Shown here in pieces: positions 7,343-30,417 of a DNA stretch of 64,000 nt. The stretch lies in IMG/VR virus record IMGVR_UViG_3300025322_000015, positions 1-64,000 of that record; one strand, written 5' to 3'. This DNA comes from a virus. Within the stretch, counting starts at the first letter, position 1; every line of letters starts with the position of its first letter. A program made the position numbers and the translations under genes. Below the pieces are notes generated by a model, which ran no database searches, was not told where the DNA came from, and saw only the letters and a list, made by a program, of their open reading frames with translations.

Positions 7343-8350
7343 TTAGATCACCACGTCGTTGAAGAACACGCCGAGGTCGGCCGACACGCGCTGAAGATCC
7401 CACGCCATACGACCCTGGAAGAAGTCGCTGTGCGCGCGATCGTCACGACCGGACTCGATGACGCCGCCCATCGCATTCGTGGCGCCGGGGATCAGGCCGG
7501 TCCAGGCGAAGTTGGCAATTGCCGTCGGAGAGTCGAGACCGGGATTCGGCTCGATGTACGCCAGCAGCATCGCCTTCTTGTCGACGATGAAGTTGAAGCT
7601 GTCCGTGGCACCTTCGGCCGCCGCATTGTAGACAGAACGAGCAGTCACGACCTGGTCGACGTCGAACAGGGCTGCCAGGATCATATCGTCGGCCACGCCG
7701 TGCTGGACGTATTTGATGCGGTCAGCGATATCGGGATGGGAGCGCAGAGTCCGTTTCACGTCGGCACCAAGAACGAGCTTATTCGGCATGTAGCCGGTAA
7801 GTTCGTTCATCGCATCCTTCGCCGCATCGATAACGCCGATCGGATCGGAGGAGGCATCGCTGAATTGCAGGAACTGGAGGTTGCCGGGAGTTGAGGCGAC
7901 ACCTTCATAGTTCGTGGTCCAGACGCCGGTGCGGAAGAAGTTCTGCGCCCAGACACGGTCCTGTTTGATGAGATGCTTCTGCGTGAGCAGGATCGTGGCG
8001 TTCTCGTCGAGCCGGATCGGATCGTCGGCGTTCGCGCGCTGACGGTCATCGACAGTATGCTCCAGCGCGAACTCGACAGCGCTGTAGGTGCCCTCACCGA
8101 TCTTGTAGCCGACCTGAACGGGACGACCACCGAGCGGGCGGGGAGCAGCCTCATCGCGCCAGAAGTAACCGCGATCGTAAACGACGAACTTGTCGGTCTG
8201 TTTGAGGACCGGAATCACCGAGGCGCAGCTCTGTGCGATGAACCGCGCCGAATCCTGAACGAACATCACGGAGAAGTCGGTCAGGTAGCGGTCGATGTGC
8301 AACGTCCCTTCGATGTTCGTTGCCGAAGGGGAATTCTTTTGAATACGCAT
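7343..8350 (-). CDS. Major capsid protein (HK97 fold, lambda gpE-like family)
   Basis: 335 aa, GC-rich host-like codons; HIDRYLTDFSV, YDRGYFWRDEA, DVDQVVTARSVYN; follows the scaffold and decoration genes. Confidence 0.9.
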   Translation of the reverse strand: MRIQKNSPSATNIEGTLHIDRYLTDFSVMFVQDSARFIAQSCASVIPVLKQTDKFVVYDRGYFWRDEAAPRPLGGRPVQVGYKIGEGTYSAVEFALEHTVDDRQRANADDPIRLDENATILLTQKHLIKQDRVWAQNFFRTGVWTTNYEGVASTPGNLQFLQFSDASSDPIGVIDAAKDAMNELTGYMPNKLVLGADVKRTLRSHPDIADRIKYVQHGVADDMILAALFDVDQVVTARSVYNAAAEGATDSFNFIVDKKAMLLAYIEPNPGLDSPTAIANFAWTGLIPGATNAMGGVIESGRDDRAHSDFFQGRMAWDLQRVSADLGVFFNDVVI

Positions 8351-8398: not shown

Positions 8399-8782
8399 TT
8401 ACGCCACAGTGCCCGGGATCAGCGTGACCGGAATCACGTCGCCGGAAACACCAGCCACGAGTGCGACGCCGATCGAGTAGAGCGCCGAAGTCGCTGCGAC
8501 ACCAAGGCCGGACGCATTGGACATCACACGCTGACCGGCCTGAACCGTGCCACCGAGCTTCACCTTGGCGATGCCGAGCATCTGAATGGTGGCCGGCTCG
8601 TCAGCAACAGCCTCCTCGTACAGGGTGCCGATCGCCAACGCACCGTTGCCGGCGAGAACCAACTTCTGCTGCTGGTTGAGTGCGACGATTTTATTCAGAT
8701 CACCGGTGAAATCTTCACCAGCCGTCTCCGAATACATGAATTCCGCAGGCACACGAAAGATTGCCATTTCCGTTTTCTCCAA
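8399..8782 (-). CDS. Capsid decoration/cement protein (DUF2190-like)
   Basis: 127 aa; GIAKVKLGGTVQAGQRVMSNASGLGVAA..GVALVAGVSGDVIPV pattern; immediately upstream of MCP. Confidence 0.8.
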   Translation of the reverse strand: MEKTEMAIFRVPAEFMYSETAGEDFTGDLNKIVALNQQQKLVLAGNGALAIGTLYEEAVADEPATIQMLGIAKVKLGGTVQAGQRVMSNASGLGVAATSALYSIGVALVAGVSGDVIPVTLIPGTVA

Positions 8783-8837: not shown

Positions 8838-10088
8838 CTAGTTGGCGTCGGACTCACGATACGCAGCGAACTCGTCCGGGTATTCCGTGCGCGCCTTGGT
8901 CATCGCAGCGGCGTGGCCGAGACTGTCACGCTTTTGGATTTCACGCACCTTGCCCATGAACGGATGCGAAGCACCCTTCCGCAGGCCCGACTGCCGGCCG
9001 ATGTCTTCGCCGCCACCATCACCGAGACGAGTGAACGCCGATTTGATGGCACCCTCGCCGGCCGCCAGCATCTTCACGATGGAAGCCTGAACATCTTCGG
9101 AAAGACTCTCGATCCCCTTCAGGACGTGGGCCTTCTCGATATCGGTGCCGGGCAGGTTCGTGTAAGCAGCCTTGGCCACCTTCTCGTATTCGCCCATCTG
9201 GCGAGCAGCCTTCTCGGTAGCGGCCGACTTCACCGCCGACTCGATTTCCTCGGACTGCGCCTTCAGGATAGCGAACATCTCGTCGCCGACCGAAGACTTC
9301 CGAATCGTCTGGCCCTTGACCGTCAGGGTCTCGTCGTCGGCAGCCTTGCCCATCTTCTTCTTGCGATCGCCGGCCGACAAACCGCGGAAAGCCTTCTGCT
9401 CCTCGCGGCCCAGGCTGGACATGTAAGCCTTTTCCTGGTCGTTCATCGAGGCCTTAGCGGTCTCCACCTCGAGCGAAGTGGTGAGCTCCTCGACCTTAGC
9501 AGTCAGGGATTCGACCTGAGTCGTCAGTTCAGCAGCCACACCAGCATCCGTAGAAGCCTTCGTGAGATCCTCGAGCTTCTTCTCCAGATCAGAAATCTGA
9601 ACCTTCATCTGCTCGGTGGTCAACACCTTCGCCATATCCTCAATCTCCTCAGTTGATTTACCCAAAGCTGACATCATTACCATGTCGGCTTCGCTCCACA
9701 TCCGTCTGATAACGGACATGAAATCTTCTACCGTGTTCCTAGCCATGGTAAGTTTAGTTTCCGGAGGAGTAACAGGATCTCCGGCAATCGATCTGAGCGA
9801 CGTTTCCATTGCATTGATAATGGGCCCAACGTGCTCAAGCGCTTCGTAATACTGCTCGCATCGCATCGTCTCGGAAAGAACAGTCGAGAACGGAACGGCG
9901 CCATCCATCGGATCAATATATCGTTTTGTAAGGGCTCCAATATCGAGTTTCGTCATATCAACATCTCCATCCGCACTTTTGGCAATGCGCATGAGTGCGC
10001 CCTGTTGGGCCGGAGTATCAACAGCACTGATTTCGCCGATCTCAAAAGCGCGCATAATCTTCTGTTCTTTGTTCTTACCCTTACTCAT
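8838..10088 (-). CDS. Prohead protease-associated scaffolding protein
   Basis: N-terminal IGEISAVDTPAQQGA (protease-like segment) followed by long coiled coil; C-terminal AAAMTKARTEYPDEFAAY. Confidence 0.75.
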   Translation of the reverse strand: MSKGKNKEQKIMRAFEIGEISAVDTPAQQGALMRIAKSADGDVDMTKLDIGALTKRYIDPMDGAVPFSTVLSETMRCEQYYEALEHVGPIINAMETSLRSIAGDPVTPPETKLTMARNTVEDFMSVIRRMWSEADMVMMSALGKSTEEIEDMAKVLTTEQMKVQISDLEKKLEDLTKASTDAGVAAELTTQVESLTAKVEELTTSLEVETAKASMNDQEKAYMSSLGREEQKAFRGLSAGDRKKKMGKAADDETLTVKGQTIRKSSVGDEMFAILKAQSEEIESAVKSAATEKAARQMGEYEKVAKAAYTNLPGTDIEKAHVLKGIESLSEDVQASIVKMLAAGEGAIKSAFTRLGDGGGEDIGRQSGLRKGASHPFMGKVREIQKRDSLGHAAAMTKARTEYPDEFAAYRESDAN

Positions 10089-11257
10089 GCGCCTACCTCT
10101 TCATCAAGTAACCGGCGACCGCCAATACTAAACCCGGTGTACGTCCCGTTCTTAAACTTCTCGAGGATGTCAGGCCGGTCTACTTTCATGCCGATCATCA
10201 ATCCTGTAGTTGGGGAAGCAATACCCATCGCCTTCGCAATATCTGTTGTCAAGGGAAATGCGAAGATTACTTCTCCGGCACGTTCTACTGACTCCGCATC
10301 ATTTCCCCGATAGCGATGCATGTGTCCACCGATGCGGGATTTCTGCATGTAGTTGGCCGAAGCGACGAGCATCGAATCCTCAGGAATGTGATCGCCCTGG
10401 ACGTCAAAATACTCCTTGCCGCGAATCTTCGAGATGATTGCCCAACCGAAGACGATACCGAGTTCTTCGTTGACTTCCTCGACCTTGGCAACGTGGAACA
10501 CCTTCTCGGTGATCGAATCGTGCCAATCATCTTTTACAACGTTGAAGCGCTCAGGACCGAAGAGCAGCACACCTGTAAAGGGATGCACCTTGGTAAGATC
10601 AACGTCACCGGCATCCCAGGATATCGTCACGTGCGGGGTGTATTGGAAGTGATCCCAGGTCGCACCAACGGAGCGCAGATAATCCCAGCGCTCGTTCAAC
10701 TCATTAGATTTGAATTGCAGAACGACAGCACCACCATCACCCAACGCGACAACTTCCCGCCCAGCTGTATCCTCAGCAGCAAGAGTAGAAGTCACGGAAG
10801 CGGGCCACTCAAGCGGAGCGTGCGAGTACGCGATGGTTACGTGAAGGTCTCCAGGCTGTAGCACTGTCTTGAATCCCTGTGCCTTCGCCCACTTAATAAA
10901 CTCATCGGAATTGATTAAACGACGACTGACATACATCGAACGTTCAGCTGAACGTTTCTCAATCCCAGGACCATGAGCTTCGCATACAGCACCAAGCCGT
11001 ACAGCAGCATTATGTATTGATTGGATGTCTGTAAGATCGTTACGGGAATTCCGCGCACCAATCTTGGCAATCCACCGGTCATCGTCACCCCTCTCCCAGT
11101 TTTCCTTGACCGCCGCCCATGCCGATTGCTTGGCAACGGGTTCGGATGCTCCGGATTCTATTTGAGAGTTTGCGACTTCTCTGAATACAGTCTGTGCTGC
11201 CTCGGGGAGAGCTGATCTCACCGACTCAGGAAGGTCAGCGTTCGATTGCCATGGCAT
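10085..11257 (-). CDS. ChaB - Acb1-like 2H phosphodiesterase - XkdF-like prohead protease fusion; start trimmed to MPWQSNADLP at 11257
   Basis: ChaB: LPESVRSALPEAAQTVFREVAN..AWAAVKENW. 2H: LHVTIAYS and YTPHVTISW. XkdF-like: IVFGWA..DVQGDHI..GGHMH..VIFAFP..KNGTYTGFSIGG. Confidence 0.8.
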   Translation of the reverse strand: MPWQSNADLPESVRSALPEAAQTVFREVANSQIESGASEPVAKQSAWAAVKENWERGDDDRWIAKIGARNSRNDLTDIQSIHNAAVRLGAVCEAHGPGIEKRSAERSMYVSRRLINSDEFIKWAKAQGFKTVLQPGDLHVTIAYSHAPLEWPASVTSTLAAEDTAGREVVALGDGGAVVLQFKSNELNERWDYLRSVGATWDHFQYTPHVTISWDAGDVDLTKVHPFTGVLLFGPERFNVVKDDWHDSITEKVFHVAKVEEVNEELGIVFGWAIISKIRGKEYFDVQGDHIPEDSMLVASANYMQKSRIGGHMHRYRGNDAESVERAGEVIFAFPLTTDIAKAMGIASPTTGLMIGMKVDRPDILEKFKNGTYTGFSIGGRRLLDEEVGA

Positions 11258-11427
11258 ATGTGCTGGGGAGCTACGGAGAGCGCTGGCAGCCACCGTAGTG
11301 CGGTAGGGGCCGGTCCTCGTAGGACGACAAAAGTAGCATACCCCTTTACGTGACGCAATATAGGAAAATTCGACGAAACATGCGAATGGCTCCGAAATCC
11401 ATGGAGCCATTCATTCTCGATAGATTG

Positions 11428-11589
11428 TTATGAAGTCTTTAGCATTGCACGGCTCTCGGCGAGCAGCGCCTCTATAGTTTTCCTCCGAGCTTCGTCGTCG
11501 TAACGAATGATATCAAACTCCCGTTCGCTGTCATCCCAGACGAATCTACTCACTACTTTCTTCTGTGCAACCTTCTTTGTTCTTGCCAT
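11428..11589 (-). CDS. Small ORF (53 aa) directly downstream of MuF-ART; candidate immunity protein (not in ORF track)
   Basis: AGGTGG Shine-Dalgarno-like site; MARTKKVAQKKVVSRFVWDDSEREFDIIRYDDEARRKTIEALLAESRAMLKTS*. Confidence 0.5.
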   Translation of the reverse strand: MARTKKVAQKKVVSRFVWDDSEREFDIIRYDDEARRKTIEALLAESRAMLKTS

Positions 11590-11598
11590 CATCTCCAC

Positions 11599-13662
11599 CT
11601 ATGGTAGTAGTTCGAGAACTACTGCATTCGCTTTAATTTCTCGAACGATAAACTTGGAACCTCTATCAAGAAGTATTTCGAATTCGGTTTTGTTGGATGT
11701 CAACTTTTCCATGGAGATCGCTCTAGAGCCCTTAGGAAGAAGAATCTCGACAACAAAACCGCTGCCGTGTATCCAATTCGCCGCAAAGCTCCTGCTCATG
11801 CTAGTGCTTAACACAGCTTGATCTATAAGCACTGTTTGCCCAATTTGCAAGCTCGCAAAGGTGCGTTTCCACCTACTGCCCTTCATGCCGCGGTAGACGA
11901 TGACGTCCTCAGCGAGAACGGCTTTTGCAAAAGCACTGTCAAGCTCAGCTATCATCCTGTCGGCACTACGCATCGTATCAGCATAACCAAGGAATGGAGC
12001 GTCACCGTACCGCAACCGCTTCACTACCTGTTTATTGATTATTTCATAACCGTAACCAGAAGTGTAGTGCTTTAGCGTATCCATTTCGGCTAGTGTTAAT
12101 TTTGCCGTGAAACCTTCTTTATACAAATCGTCTAAAAGTTCACGCATCTCCATTGTTTTCAAATTACTGATAAAATCTTCTGGATTTTTCCCAGTACCTT
12201 TCGGAGGTTTCGTAACTGTTGTAGGCACACCATATTCATACTTAGCAGCCTGTACAACATCTTCACCGGCGATAGTCTTAGTTGATGTCGACGTGATGCC
12301 ACGGTTCTTTGCAGCTTGTCGAACAACCTCAGTATACTTCTTTGCCGCTTTCAATTCAGCAAGTTCTAAAGCCTCCGCCGTCTTCAAGGCCGCGCTGAGT
12401 ATCTTGTCTGCTTCAGCAATTTGAGCAGCTTCTACATTCTTTAGAACATCAGCCACCTGCGAGTTCAGCTGATTGAATGCTCCTCGTGCTGCATCATTAT
12501 CAGCAAAGGTGACAAAGCCATCAGCGTAGTCAGTATCGTACGAGGTTTTAAGACTCGTGTATATTGGCGGAGGGGCAGGTTTTGGCGTAACAACAATCGG
12601 GCGTTGTAACGCTGTACTCTGACCCGGTGGAAGTATTTTCGTGAGCGTAGTACAGCGGCATTGAATAGTCTCCGCCGCTGGTGCTGATCTATCTCCAGGA
12701 TACATCAATTTCGCACCAGATACGCTAACGAAATGTTCTTCAGCACCGCGCTCTTGTTTGTTTAGAAAGAAGTGTGTCTGACGCTCACGACCATCTACAT
12801 TCGTACGCCAGGTGCGGCGGATGCGGCCCATCTCCAAATCAACTTTAGTAGCCGTCTGCATCATCGCTTGATGTCGTGCCACATTGGTCGTACTCAGCAT
12901 CTCCGTACGCGCGATAGTTTCCGCGCGCATAGACAACATCCGTTCCTGGTAGCGACCCACCATCCTATCGATTTGAGAAGTAGATAATTGAACACCTCGA
13001 TCGATTGCACGAGATACAGAGGAATCAAATCGACGATCCCGAAGAGTACGATCCAGCGCTTCCGAACTTCCACTCTGTAGAAGGCTACGATAGTTGGAGA
13101 CTGCTCCCATCTGGCGTTGTGTCAAGCCAATCTGATCACGAAACAACCTTGAGGCCTCGATGGGACTCATACCTTCTTTCAACGCACGTGCGAGGACAGT
13201 ACGAATTGCTTTCCTTTGCGCATCTACTATCTCACGAATGAATTCAAGAAGTGATTGACGCATCAAGCGTGCAGCATCAGCACTACCAGGATCGAACGAT
13301 AGATTGACTGTCGGGCTAACTTCTATCTTCTTGACTTGCGTGATATCCAATTCTTTAATCAGCCAGCGCGTCTCGAAGTTTCCTGCGTTCTCGAAGACGG
13401 TAGGAAGAACCTCTGAAAAGTCTTCTACAAGATCGTCGGTGACGGATAAGCACTGCACAAGCCTGTTGGCGGCGTACATGTCACGGAACTTGCCGACCAC
13501 ATCATCTGACTTACAGCCCTCCAGAAATGTATTGAAGGCTGCGCGAATCAGAGTCTCTTGACCGGTCTCGAATGTAACGATACGTCGCACATCGGGAGGT
13601 AAGGCCTTACCTAGAACGGCGTGCTTGCACTGCACGATTCGAGACTGCGGAATAAACTGCAT
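11599..13662 (-). CDS. Head morphogenesis protein (MuF / SPP1 gp7-like) with C-terminal VIP2-like ADP-ribosyltransferase
   Basis: MuF: RAETIARTEML, RRTW..DGRERQTH, YPGD..ETIQCRCT. ART R-S-E motifs: IVYRG, LSTS, TEFEILLDRGSKF. Confidence 0.9.
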   Translation of the reverse strand: MQFIPQSRIVQCKHAVLGKALPPDVRRIVTFETGQETLIRAAFNTFLEGCKSDDVVGKFRDMYAANRLVQCLSVTDDLVEDFSEVLPTVFENAGNFETRWLIKELDITQVKKIEVSPTVNLSFDPGSADAARLMRQSLLEFIREIVDAQRKAIRTVLARALKEGMSPIEASRLFRDQIGLTQRQMGAVSNYRSLLQSGSSEALDRTLRDRRFDSSVSRAIDRGVQLSTSQIDRMVGRYQERMLSMRAETIARTEMLSTTNVARHQAMMQTATKVDLEMGRIRRTWRTNVDGRERQTHFFLNKQERGAEEHFVSVSGAKLMYPGDRSAPAAETIQCRCTTLTKILPPGQSTALQRPIVVTPKPAPPPIYTSLKTSYDTDYADGFVTFADNDAARGAFNQLNSQVADVLKNVEAAQIAEADKILSAALKTAEALELAELKAAKKYTEVVRQAAKNRGITSTSTKTIAGEDVVQAAKYEYGVPTTVTKPPKGTGKNPEDFISNLKTMEMRELLDDLYKEGFTAKLTLAEMDTLKHYTSGYGYEIINKQVVKRLRYGDAPFLGYADTMRSADRMIAELDSAFAKAVLAEDVIVYRGMKGSRWKRTFASLQIGQTVLIDQAVLSTSMSRSFAANWIHGSGFVVEILLPKGSRAISMEKLTSNKTEFEILLDRGSKFIVREIKANAVVLELLP

Positions 13663-27091: not shown

Positions 27092-28588
27092 TTACTCTTC
27101 TGAGATTCGAGTTCTCCTTCTTGCAGGTTTGTTCGACGATCCAGTATCCTCAGGATTGTTTTCTTCCGGAGGATTCAATATTGCTTCCGTCGCAGCTTGC
27201 GATGCTGCCATTGAGTTCTCGGCCATCATCGTCGGATCGATAACTCCGTCATATCTACTGACACCAAGGAGATCTCGAACATCATCGATAACAGGATCGT
27301 CTGGTGCGAGCACTGCTCCAGCTGTCGCCATATCGCGCAGAGCAGATGTCACCTGACCAACATCCTTGAACGATACATCTTCGGCAGAGAACCAGGGTTT
27401 GGACTCTTCTGGAAAACCATTTAGTGCCCAGGCGGCTTCGACCAAATCTGCATCATATGCTGCCGTGACGGTACTCAGAGTCGCATTCGCGATCAAATAC
27501 AGGTTTCTGCTCTTATCTACTGCTAAGGCTCGGTTGCCTCCCTGATCACCCATCATCAGATGTTCCGTGCCGATGATACGCGCCATCTCTCTTTGCAGTC
27601 TATCGATCGCAGTAGACAGCTCAGGCAAACCATTCGCAGTACCCTGGAGCAGATCCATGCCATACTGATAGACGGACGACACCTTAAAGCCATCAGCGGC
27701 TTCAGACTCATAAGGCATCGAGTCGAGAACGATACCTGTATTTGAATCCTTAACCTGCAACTCCACAAACTGGGTCATCTGCGCAATCGAGGTATCCATC
27801 TGATCTTTGGTGATAGTACCAGCCTTAACCAGTTCTTGTAGTTTTGCTATCGGCATCCGACCAATTGGAATACCGCGGAGGTCTCTTTCAAACGTCCTGG
27901 CTTCCAATGCAAGGTACTGCTTCAACCTGTTATGCGGCTCAAGCAAGTTGCGGAAGATGCCGAAACCTTCAGGTGAATCAGTAAACGTGTCGTCTACAAG
28001 GTAAACGAGTTTCGATCTCGGTATGCCCAGAAGGTTATTGCTCTGAGGTGACCGCTGCCATACACCGAGAACACTACCCTTCTCAGACACCTCCCAGCGC
28101 TCAACTGTATGCTGCATTCTCGGCTCGAGACTCTCGAAGCCAATCTTGCCGTCCATTCTCTTCTTTGCAGTCCACTCCTGTATTCCAAAGCCATGGAACA
28201 GATATGTCGCTGCTCGCCGGACAGAGGATTGAAAAGGTGTTGACATGTCATGGATGATGTCCTCCATGAACTCAGCATACATCTTATCGTCAGGTTTATC
28301 GCTTGCCGGCACCACAGTCCACTGCGGATGCGCAATCAGGTTTAGGAAGTATCTGACGCTCGCTGCGACAATCGAGATGTTCGACAGTATCTCAGAAGAG
28401 ATTGTATAGCGCTCTCTGCCATACCACTGAGCGCTTTTATCTTTCCTCTGTACGAACCCACCAAAGATGGCAGTACCTGATCCGCCCATCTCTTTGAACG
28501 GAGTAGCAGGAGGCACACCCCGACCTGGTGTATTAAATCCCCGGAAACGATTCAACGTCTCCTTATTCAATCGTACGCGCTCAACCAT
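27092..28588 (-). CDS. Portal protein (DUF935/Mu gp29-like)
   Basis: 498 aa following TerL; HGFGIQEW, GIPRSKLVY, PEGFGIFR, ERDLRGIP, DDPVIDDVRDLLG. Confidence 0.85.
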   Translation of the reverse strand: MVERVRLNKETLNRFRGFNTPGRGVPPATPFKEMGGSGTAIFGGFVQRKDKSAQWYGRERYTISSEILSNISIVAASVRYFLNLIAHPQWTVVPASDKPDDKMYAEFMEDIIHDMSTPFQSSVRRAATYLFHGFGIQEWTAKKRMDGKIGFESLEPRMQHTVERWEVSEKGSVLGVWQRSPQSNNLLGIPRSKLVYLVDDTFTDSPEGFGIFRNLLEPHNRLKQYLALEARTFERDLRGIPIGRMPIAKLQELVKAGTITKDQMDTSIAQMTQFVELQVKDSNTGIVLDSMPYESEAADGFKVSSVYQYGMDLLQGTANGLPELSTAIDRLQREMARIIGTEHLMMGDQGGNRALAVDKSRNLYLIANATLSTVTAAYDADLVEAAWALNGFPEESKPWFSAEDVSFKDVGQVTSALRDMATAGAVLAPDDPVIDDVRDLLGVSRYDGVIDPTMMAENSMAASQAATEAILNPPEENNPEDTGSSNKPARRRTRISEE

Positions 28589-28611: not shown

Positions 28612-30417
28612 TTATCGGTTTCTAACTATCACCATACCAAGGCTGGCGATCATTCTATCTCTCTTCTTCGCTGGCCAAAACGCCATCATGCACGAATCAC
28701 CTAAGTTCGGCGATTTCGAATTCTCTGGTGTCTTCTTAACCATCATCTTCAAGGTGCCGCTCTTGGCGAATATCGGCTGGCTCAACTCTTTCATTAACTT
28801 CTGAAGTAGTTTAGCTGGCAAGGTCGAAGGCAGCGATATCAACATATCAGGAGTCCATACGAAACCTTCTTCATATATCGCCTTATACGTGTTCTCGAAT
28901 CTTCTTGCGAGCTCCCACCAAGCCTGTGCTTTGATGTTCTGAAAGAAGTCTCTATTCTTAGGTGACCGCTTATCTACGTCGTCTTTAACTACACGGTCTA
29001 GCGGATTGAGAACTGCTCCACCTGCTGCCCAAGGTGAGATGCTCCAATGCTTCGGTATCTTACCTTTTTCGTTTAGGCGATTGGTTTCAGCTTTCACACC
29101 AGCACCAACCCCAATGCAGTCATACTCGAACTCGAGGAAATCTTCTTCCGGGACAATCGTCTTGCAATTCGATACACTACGTCTTGCAGTCAATCCTGTA
29201 TCCCGATCTCCCCACTCATCTATGAATCGGACGACAGAACCTTTCCGAATGGTTTGAGCGTTCTCATCCTGCCCCTCGTCACCAACGTCAAGTCCTGATG
29301 CCCAACCGCCGCTGTCATCAAAGCCGAGTCGAAGGTGCGCGTCAAGTGCTGCCTTAACATGATCTGGTGAGATAATGACACCTTCGACAGATGCGGCGGA
29401 ATCTCTATCAACCTCTCTTGCGAATACGTGACTGAGACCATCTGACTTGGCTTTGGCTTTTCTCTGCTGATACCACTCTTTAGTCTTTTCAGGATGATGC
29501 GACCAATCCATGACAAAGACGTTCGTCTTGCCATTCTGAATCTGATCACCTGGTGCCCATTCAATTCCGGTATCTCGCTTGCGGTAGAAGATTGTAGTCG
29601 TGTCGCCAACTGAGGAGATATCAATCTGGCAACGCGTATTATCCATAAGCGCCGCTTCGATTGATTCCGCTTTATCGTAATGGGCTGACTCATCCTTAAA
29701 ATAACAAAGGGTTCTGCCACCACGTCCGATCTGATCGCCAATTTCCCCGATAATACTTGATCCATTAGCAGGGTTTGTAATCCGCATGAAGTGGGCATTG
29801 CCATCGAACGTAAATCCCTTGGGTAACAAGAATGGTGGGAACAATCTTAAGATCATTCTCATCTTCTCAAAGATGCTACTCGGATCACCTATCCGATCTA
29901 CTAGCTCCTGTTTCCTACTGCCCCAGCCTATTGCCGAACCATCCTTAAATAACCACAACCATATGCTTATCGCGCAGCAAGCCCAAGTAGCGCCCATATC
30001 ACGGCTTTTCTCTACTAAGCCGTCTGCCTCTTTATTTATGCACGCAAGTATGAACTGTACAAACTCATCTTGCCTGGTGAACATAATGAATGGCATCTTA
30101 GCAGTCTTACCCTGCGATATCATTCTGGGGTCGTATGTAGTACACCAGTCATTAATAAAGTCTATCGCACCAGTCTTATTATTCTTGTAGTGATCTAATG
30201 CAGCTTCAGCCAACTCAGGATCTAATGCAAATCTTTCTAACTGCTGTTGTCTCCATGCCTTGATCAAATCATAGTTAGGTGGCCATTCATTCAGCTGTAA
30301 GGTCGAGGGTGCGGGAATAGTTTTTAACTGGCTTCTTATCTTTGTTATTCTCACCTTCTCGGCTATCTCCTCTTCCGAGGAGTTTACCGAATACCTTTTC
30401 AAAGGTTGCGAGTTCAT
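28612..30417 (-). CDS. terL: Terminase large subunit (true start possibly GTG at 30354)
   Basis: TYDPR, VEKSRDMGATW (Walker A variant), GRGGR, FKDESAH (Walker B), GLDVGDEGQD nuclease motif, KSPNLGDS. Confidence 0.95.
   Translation of the reverse strand: MNSQPLKRYSVNSSEEEIAEKVRITKIRSQLKTIPAPSTLQLNEWPPNYDLIKAWRQQQLERFALDPELAEAALDHYKNNKTGAIDFINDWCTTYDPRMISQGKTAKMPFIMFTRQDEFVQFILACINKEADGLVEKSRDMGATWACCAISIWLWLFKDGSAIGWGSRKQELVDRIGDPSSIFEKMRMILRLFPPFLLPKGFTFDGNAHFMRITNPANGSSIIGEIGDQIGRGGRTLCYFKDESAHYDKAESIEAALMDNTRCQIDISSVGDTTTIFYRKRDTGIEWAPGDQIQNGKTNVFVMDWSHHPEKTKEWYQQRKAKAKSDGLSHVFAREVDRDSAASVEGVIISPDHVKAALDAHLRLGFDDSGGWASGLDVGDEGQDENAQTIRKGSVVRFIDEWGDRDTGLTARRSVSNCKTIVPEEDFLEFEYDCIGVGAGVKAETNRLNEKGKIPKHWSISPWAAGGAVLNPLDRVVKDDVDKRSPKNRDFFQNIKAQAWWELARRFENTYKAIYEEGFVWTPDMLISLPSTLPAKLLQKLMKELSQPIFAKSGTLKMMVKKTPENSKSPNLGDSCMMAFWPAKKRDRMIASLGMVIVRNR

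What the first reader, a model, noticed from the sequence alone, without database searches (positions are those of the whole stretch)
10085..11257. Anti-CBASS Acb1-like phosphodiesterase fused inside a ChaB-prohead protease polyprotein
Seen: the central ~140 aa (about 10520-10940) has two HxT motifs (LHVTIAYS, YTPHVTISW) and the segment LRSVGATWDHFQYTPHVT. From memory this closely parallels T4 57B/Acb1 ([21 protein letters not shown]). It is flanked by a ChaB domain and an XkdF-like protease. Established: Acb1 2H enzymes cleave cyclic oligonucleotide signals. Inference: the enzyme is produced at capsid-assembly time, when several CBASS systems are thought to sense late or structural proteins. 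It may be released by the protease or packaged for delivery.
Basis: partly seen in the sequence, partly recalled or inferred. Interest (0 to 1): 0.75.

Follow-up and report, generated by a model that had tools for sequence, protein, structure and literature searches.

The report
Anti-CBASS enzyme fused to capsid protease
An uncultured phage has built an Acb1-type enzyme, which destroys the cyclic-nucleotide alarm signals of bacterial CBASS immunity, into its only capsid-maturation protease, so the enzyme is probably loaded into the capsid; such fusions are common in phage metagenomes and were predicted in 2017, but none has been tested.

Summary
Window 10085-11257 (-) encodes a 390-aa protein with three folded domains joined by flexible linkers:
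- ChaB, residues 1-65.
- Acb1-type 2H phosphodiesterase, residues 106-249 (Pfam PF23474, E 7.7e-38). Both HxT motifs, the adenine-contacting Glu and the lid Trp are kept. The model matches FBB1 Acb1 at Z 17.8, clearly above LigT-type enzymes.
- XkdF-type prohead protease, residues 257-390 (T4 gp21-like fold; invariant His314 and Ser377).

The gene sits between a MuF-ADP-ribosyltransferase gene and the scaffold, cement and capsid genes. It holds the only recognisable head protease in the 72.7-kb record.

The architecture is not unique. Hundreds of metagenomic proteins share it. Among the 150 nearest Acb1-domain cluster representatives, only 7 are stand-alone size. The others are fused to three head-protease families, three portal families, MuF, or giant polyvalent proteins.

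A co-fold model places the conserved N-terminus of the scaffold against the protease active-site region (0.84 versus best control 0.01). This gives a route into the procapsid.

My best reading is a capsid-targeted anti-signalling enzyme. Whether it acts late in the producing cell or is ejected into the next cell is open. Iyer et al. 2017 predicted 2H-portal/MuF cargo, and Doherty et al. 2025 tabulated 2H-protease fusions, so this is a new variant of a known kind. An overlapping window of the same genome also noted this stretch.

The parts
10085..11257 (-). Whole gene: ChaB - Acb1 - XkdF protease fusion, 390 aa plus stop. Its stop overlaps the scaffold start (ATGA).
   Evidence: start codon fixed by comparison with L002
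11063..11257 (-). ChaB domain (residues 1-65). Function unknown. It is missing in the closest relatives (342-345 aa forms), so it is dispensable.
   Evidence: Pfam E 1.8e-13; model against 1sg7 Z 9.1, rmsd 1.9 A; N-terminal variation in relatives
10976..11062 (-). Helical mini-module 'GARNSxxDxxxIQxIH(D/N)xxxxLGAxC' (residues 66-94). It is present in a subset of relatives and lies after Acb1 in some of them.
   Evidence: predicted helix 72-87
10943..10975 (-). Disordered linker (residues 95-105) holding I99-E100-K101, a candidate processing site.
   Evidence: pLDDT below 50 at 95-102; hydrophobic-E-K motif found in 20 of 83 relatives with an N-terminal extension, against 2.3% of background windows
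10511..10942 (-). Acb1-type 2H cyclic-oligonucleotide phosphodiesterase domain (residues 106-249).
   Evidence: PF23474 E 7.7e-38; family profile against 7t26 E 5.4e-18; VIA Z 17.8 against 7t27_A
10835..10843 (-). First catalytic HxT motif (H139-V-T141).
   Evidence: invariant in 120 of 120 homologues
10625..10633 (-). Second catalytic HxT motif (H209-V-T211).
   Evidence: His in 120 of 120; Thr 115 and Ser 5 of 120
10502..10513 (-). I249-T250-E251-K252 at the Acb1/protease junction. This is the natural C-terminal end of Acb1 and a candidate cleavage site of the gp21 type (after Glu).
   Evidence: E251 in 113 and K252 in 111 of 120; motif in 107 of 120; portal-fused and solo Acb1 end 1-3 residues after the same Glu
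10088..10489 (-). XkdF-type (Peptidase_S78_2) prohead protease domain (residues 257-390). Invariant D285, H314 and S377 (GFSIGG).
   Evidence: Pfam E 1.9e-9; T4 gp21 5jbl Z 9.3, rmsd 2.7 A over 115 residues; invariants; only such domain in the record
9978..10067 (-). Scaffold N-terminal motif (residues 8-37, 'IMRAFEIGEISAVDTPAQQGALMRIAK'), modelled to dock on the protease domain.
   Evidence: conserved at the start of the downstream gene in nearly all related loci and fused in frame in L065; alignment A3; co-fold score 0.84 against best control 0.01
8838..10088 (-). Scaffolding-type protein, 416 aa, translationally coupled to the fusion gene.
11599..13662 (-). Neighbouring MuF (head morphogenesis) - ADP-ribosyltransferase (Alt-like) fusion, a second candidate capsid-carried effector.
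   Evidence: Pfam Phage_Mu_F plus ADPrib_exo_Tox; PHROG head morphogenesis and Alt-like ART
7343..8350 (-). Major capsid protein. The cement/decoration protein lies at 8399-8782.

Best explanation
The gene encodes the phage's head-maturation protease (XkdF type) with two cargo domains on its N-terminal arm: ChaB, and a catalytically intact Acb1-type 2H phosphodiesterase.

Shown by computation: the domain identities, the intact catalytic and substrate-contact residues, the beads-on-a-string organisation, the late head-module position, and the recurrence of the fusion.

Inferred:
1. The Acb1 domain hydrolyses 3'-5' cyclic di- and trinucleotide signals that contain adenosine (CBASS signals, and possibly cA3 of type III CRISPR), as T4 and FBB1 Acb1 do.
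2. The protease domain docks on the conserved N-terminus of the scaffolding protein and is co-assembled into the procapsid, taking Acb1 with it.
3. The protease may then cut the flexible linkers after Glu100 and/or Glu251 and free a 16-kDa Acb1.
4. The enzyme works in the late cytoplasm before assembly and/or is ejected with the DNA into the next host, so that signal-degrading activity is present before any phage gene is expressed.
For: Identity of the Acb1 domain:
- PF23474 E 7.7e-38. The family profile matches FBB1 Acb1 at E 5.4e-18 and aligns the adenine-contacting Glu (E236, invariant) and the lid Trp (W245, 80%) (residue roles from PMC9117128).
- The AF2 model has pLDDT 88.6. VIA gives Z 17.8, rmsd 1.7 A over 135 of 140 residues against 7t27, above BCSR5 PDE (14.0) and LigT-type enzymes (10.4 or less).
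- H139, T141 and H209 are invariant in 120 homologues.

Protease:
- The fold matches T4 gp21 at Z 9.3, with invariant H314 and S377.
- It is the only protease-like head gene in the record, so the fusion must take part in head assembly.

Packaging logic:
- Among the 150 nearest 50%-identity cluster representatives of this Acb1 domain, only 7 are 220 aa or shorter.
- Fusion partners are XkdF (29 of 99 scanned), three portal families (16), DUF2213 head-maturation protease (5, plus 4 of 9 large proteins), Peptidase_S78, MuF, and polyvalent proteins carrying ART, NUDIX, GNAT or TopoIB.
- Co-expression does not require covalent fusion. What these unrelated partners share is residence inside the procapsid.
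- XkdF also carries other cargo: ParB-like domains and DNA methyltransferase.
- An independent LigT-type 2H-XkdF fusion occupies the same genomic slot in Arthrobacter phage Kharcho.

Docking:
- The scaffold N-terminal motif is conserved in nearly all loci and is fused to XkdF in L065.
- The co-fold model supports binding but does not show it. Score 0.84, best of 3 controls 0.01. That mark was reached by 58 of 80 solved complexes and 2 of 110 mismatched pairs, and these counts hold only roughly because my own alignments were used. The runs agree in at least 69% of contacts, and the partner's pLDDT is at least 47. Scaffold residues 8-25 touch 372-389, including S377.
- This pair behaves like the halves of a split gene, so the pass may partly reflect likeness to solved prohead proteases.

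Published prediction: Iyer et al. 2017 proposed that 2H domains fused to MuF or portal are packaged and could degrade defence nucleotides.
Against: - No biochemical, proteomic or expression data exist for this protein or for any Acb1-protease fusion.
- T4 Acb1 is a soluble enzyme whose activity appears about 15 min into infection, and CBASS acts late. Late cytoplasmic action would therefore be enough, and ejection is not required.
- Prohead proteases are often degraded or expelled after maturation. A folded 16-kDa domain would have to unfold to leave through the portal.
- The [ILV]-x-E motif after the lid Trp is also found at the C-terminus of portal-fused and solo Acb1. Its conservation may reflect lid function rather than a cleavage site.
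- The N-side E-K motif occurs in only 24% of relatives that have an N-terminal extension.
- The third catalytic residue of the protease is not assigned.
- The host, and whether it has CBASS, are unknown.
Confidence: 0.55

Rival explanations
1. Late cytoplasmic enzyme only. The fusion ensures that Acb1 is made in step with the head proteins, when CBASS is triggered. The enzyme works as part of the free, unassembled polyprotein or after autocleavage in the cytoplasm. Any copies taken into procapsids are degraded or lost and have no role in the next infection.
For: T4 Acb1 activity starts about 15 min into infection, coinciding with late CBASS action. The gene lies in the late head operon. The domains are independent beads (pTM 0.53, low-pLDDT linkers), so the enzyme should be active while fused.
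Against: Timing can be had from operon position without covalent fusion. Yet this Acb1 clade is almost never free-standing: only 7 of the 150 nearest representatives are stand-alone size. It has been joined independently to at least three protease families, three portal families and MuF. What these share is location inside the capsid, not only timing.
Confidence: 0.27
2. The 2H domain has a different substrate. It might be an RNA end-healing 2',3'-cyclic phosphodiesterase, an RNase, or a degrader of 2'-5' oligoadenylate or another nucleotide, rather than a degrader of CBASS signals.
For: 2H enzymes are catalytically versatile. PHROG names the family 'RNA ligase'. Iyer et al. 2017 considered an RNase role for portal- and MuF-fused 2H domains. 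Doherty et al. 2025 report divergent specificities among phage 2H PDEs. Identity to FBB1 Acb1 is only about 21%.
Against: The Acb1-specific model scores 130 bits, while LigT and 2'-5' ligase models fall below threshold. The fold is closest to Acb1 by a wide margin. The Acb1-specific adenine-contacting Glu and lid Trp are conserved. No RNA ligase partner is seen next to the gene.
Confidence: 0.13
3. The Acb1-like domain is an inert structural or pro-domain of the protease, for example a core or spacer protein, with no enzymatic role.
For: Some relatives have a shortened or vestigial middle domain (L061 and L062). The ChaB and GARNS modules come and go between relatives.
Against: Both HxT motifs, E236 and many pocket residues are invariant across 120 diverged homologues at 36-79% identity. 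That pattern is the signature of selection on catalysis.
Confidence: 0.03

Closest known systems
Acb1 (T4 gp57B; Erwinia phage FBB1 Acb1, PDB 7T26/7T27; Pfam PF23474), Hobbs et al. 2022, PMC9117128
   Same: Compact 2H fold, HxT/HxT tetrad, adenine-contacting Glu and a C-terminal lid with Trp. The predicted structure superposes at 1.7 A rmsd.
   Different: The characterised Acb1 proteins are free-standing, about 150 aa. Here the domain is internal to a 390-aa head protein: its N-terminus is tied to ChaB and its lid end to a prohead protease. Identity is about 21%. Activity is untested.
2H domains of phage 'polyvalent proteins' fused to MuF or portal (Iyer, Burroughs, Anand, de Souza, Aravind 2017, PMC5512222)
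   Same: The same logic applies: a 2H phosphoesterase is joined covalently to a protein that resides in the phage head, and it is predicted to be packaged and to degrade defence-related nucleotides. The neighbouring gene here is a MuF-ART protein of exactly that class.
   Different: The carrier here is the prohead protease (XkdF type), not MuF or portal. That paper predates Acb1 and did not assign a substrate.
Portal-Acb1 fusions, e.g. cyanophage Pam3 gp3 (PDB 8HDS), Pseudomonas phage phiPSA1, Rhizobium phages RHEph04/06
   Same: These are the closest sequence relatives of the Acb1 domain among solved or cultured entries (E 1.3e-17 for the single sequence, 5.9e-38 for the profile).
   Different: There the domain is at the extreme C-terminus of the portal behind a long acidic linker. 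[quoted passage not shown]
2H PDE-protease fusions listed by Doherty, Nomburg et al. 2025 (bioRxiv 10.1101/2025.08.21.671373, supplementary table), e.g. Arthrobacter phage Kharcho gp87
   Same: A 2H phosphodiesterase sits N-terminal to an XkdF-type protease, in the same slot after portal and MuF.
   Different: The Kharcho 2H domain is LigT-like (PF13563/PF02834), not of the Acb1 family, and there is no ChaB. The fusion is tabulated there but not analysed.
T4 capsid-targeted internal proteins and Alt, processed by prohead protease gp21
   Same: Enzymes are carried into the prohead, trimmed by a protease that cuts after Glu in an [LI]-x-E context, and injected with the DNA. The protease domain here has the gp21 fold.
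   Different: In T4 the cargo uses a short capsid-targeting peptide and is separate from the protease. Here the cargo is part of the protease polypeptide. Cleavage specificity is unknown.

Membership tests
Acb1 (PF23474, anti-CBASS 2H phosphodiesterase) | Match to the family HMM above the curated cut-off, over the full length | tested here: met
   129.9 bits against a cut-off of 27; model positions 2-143 of 144. Confirmed in six-frame search of the record.
Acb1 (PF23474, anti-CBASS 2H phosphodiesterase) | HxT/HxT catalytic tetrad | tested here: met
   H139-V-T141 and H209-V-T211. His residues invariant in 120 homologues.
Acb1 (PF23474, anti-CBASS 2H phosphodiesterase) | Compact Acb1-type 2H fold, closer to Acb1 than to LigT/CPDase-type 2H enzymes | tested here: met
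   On a predicted model (pLDDT 88.6): 7t27_A Z 17.8, rmsd 1.7 A, 135 residues aligned. LigT-type enzymes score Z 10.4 or less.
Acb1 (PF23474, anti-CBASS 2H phosphodiesterase) | Adenine-N6-contacting Glu and lid Trp (E141 and W147 in PMC9117128) | tested here: met
   The profile alignment to 7t26 places E236 (120 of 120) and W245 (96 of 120) at these positions. The mapping is by sequence alignment only.
Acb1 (PF23474, anti-CBASS 2H phosphodiesterase) | Other base-stacking aromatics (Y12, W74, F107) | tested here: inconclusive
   Conserved aromatics exist (Y109, F182, W201, Y206), but one-to-one mapping was not possible without coordinates. The numbering offsets in the PDB chain were ambiguous.
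Acb1 (PF23474, anti-CBASS 2H phosphodiesterase) | Hydrolysis of 3'3'-cGAMP, cUA, cAAA and similar signals, and protection from CBASS | not testable with these tools
   Needs enzyme assays and plaque assays.
XkdF-type prohead protease (Peptidase_S78_2, PF14550) | HMM match above the cut-off | tested here: met
   38 bits against 24; 40.4 bits in the six-frame search.
XkdF-type prohead protease (Peptidase_S78_2, PF14550) | Herpesvirus/T4 gp21-like protease fold with catalytic His then Ser | tested here: met
   5jbl_A Z 9.3, rmsd 2.7 A, 115 residues; VZV protease Z 5.4. H314 and S377 are invariant.
XkdF-type prohead protease (Peptidase_S78_2, PF14550) | Third catalytic residue (Asp about 25 residues after Ser in gp21-type enzymes, PMC5694885) | tested here: inconclusive
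   The protein ends 13 residues after S377. Candidates are the invariant D285, or the Asp of the scaffold 'EISAVD' motif that is modelled beside S377.
XkdF-type prohead protease (Peptidase_S78_2, PF14550) | Position in the head module next to scaffold and capsid genes | tested here: met
   Gene order is portal ... MuF-ART, this gene, scaffold, cement, MCP.
ChaB (PF06150) | HMM match and ChaB fold | tested here: met
   51.3 bits against 27; 1sg7 Z 9.1, rmsd 1.9 A, 43% identity.
Phage polyvalent proteins (Iyer et al. 2017) | Several unrelated effector or enzymatic domains in one polypeptide with a head-associated domain, encoded among virion genes | tested here: met
   ChaB plus Acb1 plus head protease within the head module. 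The same Acb1 clade occurs in proteins of 1,000-3,300 aa together with GNAT, TopoIB, MuF, NUDIX and ART.
Phage polyvalent proteins (Iyer et al. 2017) | Packaged in the virion and delivered to the host | not testable with these tools
   Needs virion proteomics and ejection assays.

The most novel reading that the evidence does not exclude
Acb1 enzymes of this clade are virion cargo. Phages pre-load the capsid with a cyclic-oligonucleotide phosphodiesterase by fusing it to whichever internal head protein is available (maturation protease, portal or MuF). The protease docks on the scaffold N-terminus, then cuts the cargo free, and the enzyme is ejected with the genome. Signal-based immunity (CBASS, and cA3-dependent type III CRISPR) would then be blunted from the first second of infection, and in cells that receive abortive or superinfecting particles.
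Probability: 0.35. Interest if true: 0.7.

Novelty: new variant of a known kind. Interest (0 to 1): 0.5.

Why it matters
Every characterised anti-CBASS protein (Acb1 to Acb4) is a soluble protein made after infection. If this clade is really carried in capsids, counter-defence against nucleotide signalling can be delivered ready-made, like T4 Alt or P1 Dar. That would change how the timing of CBASS evasion is modelled.

The survey also shows that free-standing Acb1, the form that has been studied, is the minority among the nearest relatives of this domain. Most copies are hidden inside genes annotated as portal, protease, 'RNA ligase' or hypothetical, so genome screens for anti-defence genes under-count them.

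The conserved scaffold N-terminal motif that is modelled against the XkdF active site suggests how this poorly studied protease family is recruited, and perhaps completed.

Tried and rejected
- The 441-aa ORF from ATG 11410 is rejected. The upstream 153 nt is conserved at the DNA level, but with frame-breaking indels in L002.
- That 170-nt intergenic region has no Rfam match. Its fold z-score is only -2.28. Its conserved 33-nt block occurs once in the window. The promoter and terminator scan gave no more sites than chance.
- No INPHARED phage carries the whole three-domain architecture: 0 of 148 hits cover 80% or more. There is no nucleotide-level relative among cultured phages.
Relatives were taken from IMG/VR instead.
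- I first read 'I-T-E-K' after the lid as a conserved cleavage site. This was weakened when portal-fused and solo Acb1 proteins were seen to end with the same [ILV]-x-E. It is kept only as a candidate.
- The GARNS mini-module was sought elsewhere in the window as a possible capsid-targeting signal. No second copy was found.
- Other head-protease families (Peptidase_S78, S49) are absent from the record.
- Literature searches for Acb1 with portal, fusion or virion packaging, and for XkdF with ChaB, found no study of such fusions.
- The passages of the Pam3 paper that I searched do not mention the portal's C-terminal Acb1-like domain.
Full report
**What is there.** On the minus strand, an ORF runs from 11410 to 10085. 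The protein then begins MPWQSNADLPESV, like E. coli ChaB. The closest relative in IMG/VR (L002, a 100,945-nt contig, 73% identity) has several single-base indels in the upstream 170 nt, and its ORF starts at the aligned ATG.

Pfam finds three domains:
- ChaB at 9-65 (E 1.8e-13).
- Acb1 PF23474 at 107-247, covering the whole model (E 7.7e-38, 129.9 bits against a cut-off of 27).
- Peptidase_S78_2/XkdF at 257-381 (E 1.9e-9).

The generic 2'-5' RNA-ligase model is below threshold.

**Structure.** An AlphaFold2 model built on 98 homologues has mean pLDDT 88.6 but pTM 0.53. Confidence is low only at 95-102 and around 250-258. This means three well-folded beads on flexible linkers.

- Foldseek ranks FBB1 Acb1 first (7t26, E 6.4e-9), ahead of BCSR5 phosphodiesterase and LigT.
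- The Foldseek-independent VIA search gives Z 17.8, rmsd 1.7 A over 135 of 140 residues for 7t27_A. BCSR5 PDE scores 14.0 and LigT/CPDase-type 2H enzymes 10.4 or less.
- Residues 255-390 match the T4 capsid-assembly protease gp21 (5jbl, Z 9.3, rmsd 2.7 A, 115 residues) and herpesvirus proteases.
- Residues 2-66 match ChaB (1sg7, Z 9.1).

**Catalytic residues.** In 120 metagenomic homologues (36-79% identity), H139, T141 and H209 are invariant, and position 211 is Thr or Ser. The family profile aligns to FBB1 Acb1 through its C-terminus (E 5.4e-18). It places the invariant E236 and W245 (80% Trp) at the adenine-contacting Glu and the lid Trp described by Hobbs et al.. In the protease domain, D285, H314 and S377 (GFSIGG) are invariant.

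**Context.** The record is an IMG/VR virus contig of 72,665 nt, estimated 69% complete. Gene order on the minus strand is:
- terminase large subunit (28612-30417)
- portal (27092-28588)
- a block of other genes
- MuF-ADP-ribosyltransferase (11599-13662)
- a 56-aa ORF
- this gene
- scaffold (8838-10088, start overlapping this gene's stop)
- cement protein
- major capsid protein

No other head-protease family is detectable, so this fusion is the candidate maturation protease. The capsid protein is closest to those of Erythrobacter and Roseobacter phages, which suggests an alphaproteobacterial host.

**How common is it.**
- No cultured phage in INPHARED has the whole architecture. There, the Acb1 part hits the C-termini of portal proteins (Rhizobium, Pseudomonas phiPSA1 and Synechococcus phages), and the protease part hits 'DNA methyltransferase/prohead protease' fusions.
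- In metagenomes the architecture is frequent. There are 472 hits of similar length, and all 120 listed carry Acb1 followed by the protease, with or without ChaB.
- Among 80 IMG/VR loci I found Acb1-XkdF (12), ChaB-Acb1-XkdF with variants (9), ChaB-XkdF without Acb1 (3), XkdF alone or with other N-terminal domains (41), and Acb1 at the end of portal-sized ORFs (about 16). One 1,508-aa protein is GNAT-TopoIB-Acb1-MuF.
- A search of 1.84 billion cluster representatives with the Acb1 domain alone gave 1,972 hits. Of the best 150, only 7 are 220 aa or shorter, 35 carry XkdF, and 45 exceed 750 aa.
- Pfam scans show fusion to XkdF, three portal families, DUF2213 (a PHROG 'head maturation protease'), Peptidase_S78, MuF, ART, NUDIX, InPase and Zeta toxin.
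- Arthrobacter phage Kharcho gp87, annotated 'RNA ligase', is an independent LigT-type 2H-XkdF fusion in the same genomic slot.

**Route into the capsid.** In nearly every related locus, the gene after the protease begins with a conserved motif, consensus IMRxFxIxEISAVDxPAQxGAxxxIMKR. In L065 this segment is fused in frame to the protease domain.

A co-fold of residues 253-390 with scaffold residues 1-60 supports binding but does not show it:
- Score 0.84, best of 3 controls 0.01.
- That mark was reached by 58 of 80 solved complexes and 2 of 110 mismatched pairs. These counts hold only roughly, because my own alignments were used.
- The runs agree in at least 69% of contacts, and the partner's pLDDT is at least 47.
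- Scaffold residues 8-25 lie against residues 372-389, with S21 next to S377.

Because the two pieces are fused in some phages, this behaves like a split gene, and the pass may partly reflect likeness to solved proteases. gp21-type proteases have their third catalytic Asp about 25 residues after the Ser (PMC5694885). This protein ends 13 residues after S377, so the scaffold segment may complete or occupy the active site. That is inference.

**Processing.** A hydrophobic-x-Glu-Lys motif follows the lid Trp in 107 of 120 homologues (I249-T250-E251-K252 here). A hydrophobic-Glu-Lys motif precedes the domain in 20 of 83 homologues that have an N-terminal extension (I99-E100-K101 here). The background rate is 2.3% of windows. 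Proteases with the gp21 fold cut after Glu. However, portal-fused and solo Acb1 proteins end with the same [ILV]-x-E. The C-side motif therefore marks the natural end of Acb1, and it may be conserved for lid function. Cleavage is a candidate, not a finding.

**Interpretation.** The enzyme identity is secure at the level computation allows. Co-expression alone does not need covalent fusion. The many independent fusions of this Acb1 clade to unrelated proteins that all reside inside the procapsid argue for selection on physical incorporation. I therefore favour a capsid-targeted Acb1 (0.55). The main rival is purely late cytoplasmic action (0.27), followed by a different substrate (0.13) and an inert domain (0.03). 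Whether the packaged enzyme is ejected is untested anywhere, and I found no paper on virion-borne anti-CBASS proteins.

**Novelty.**
- Iyer et al. 2017 described 2H domains fused to MuF and portal in polyvalent proteins. They proposed that these could degrade nucleotides of nucleotide-activated defence systems, and more generally that phage polyvalent proteins are packaged into the virion.
- Doherty, Nomburg et al. 2025 state that 13 of 75 phage 2H PDEs carry extra domains, including proteases. Their supplement lists Kharcho gp87 under a herpes-protease CATH fold.
- Pfam already holds the Acb1 family.

The finding is thus a new variant of a known kind. It is a bona fide Acb1-family domain embedded between ChaB and an XkdF protease, with a modelled docking route.

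Noticed in passing
window 9978-10067 (-), scaffold residues 8-37; also L002-L078 downstream genes; L065:968-2143: The gene after an XkdF protease almost always starts with the motif IMRxFxIxEISAVDxPAQxGA...IMKR. It is fused in frame to the protease in L065. It is modelled against the active-site Ser of the protease (score 0.84 against control 0.01). XkdF proteases may be split enzymes completed or recruited by the scaffold N-terminus.
   Followed up: partly
window 11258-11427 (-): The 170-nt intergenic region upstream of the gene is conserved with L002 (about 75-80% identity, with indels). It includes an identical-length block, ATATTGCGTCA..TA.AGGG.TATGCTACTTTT, and several hairpins. There is no Rfam match, the fold z-score is -2.28, and the block is unique in the window. 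It may be a late promoter or leader.
   Followed up: partly
window 10976-11062 (-), residues 66-94: A mobile helical mini-module, GARNSxxDxxxIQxIH(D/N)xxxxLGAxC, lies before Acb1 here but between Acb1 and the protease in other relatives (L005, L006, L014, P0040, P0046). Its function is unknown.
   Followed up: partly
window 11599-13662 (-): MuF head-morphogenesis domain fused to an ADP-ribosyltransferase (ADPrib_exo_Tox, Alt-like). This is a second likely capsid-delivered effector, right next to the Acb1 fusion.
   Followed up: partly
L082:5918-7054 (Arthrobacter phage Kharcho gp87, OQ938578.1): This protein is annotated 'RNA ligase', but it is a LigT-type 2H phosphoesterase fused to an XkdF protease, located after portal and MuF. 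The annotation is probably wrong. It is an independent 2H-protease fusion in a cultured phage, and so would be usable for virion proteomics.
   Followed up: partly
L025:5446-6381, L052:5428-6375; Rhizobium phage RHph_TM3_3_9 and Roseobacter RDJL phages: XkdF proteases also carry ParB-like/VapB-like domains or DNA methyltransferases on their N-terminal arm. The arm looks like a general cargo site for anti-defence enzymes.
   Followed up: no
L020:1906-3873 with L020:5743-6435; L027:1-1488 with L027:2921-3691: In these loci Acb1 sits on the portal C-terminus, while a separate XkdF or ChaB-XkdF protease lies about 2 kb downstream. The same cargo has moved between carriers within related head modules.
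   Followed up: no
window 11428-11598 (-): A 56-aa ORF between the MuF-ART gene and the fusion gene is conserved in L002 (5604-5768). It has no Pfam or PHROG match.
   Followed up: no
P0237 (773 aa, metagenome): An Acb1-MuF protein gives a weak, sub-threshold match (21.2 bits against a 35.8-bit cut-off) to an intein splicing domain inside the MuF region.
   Followed up: no
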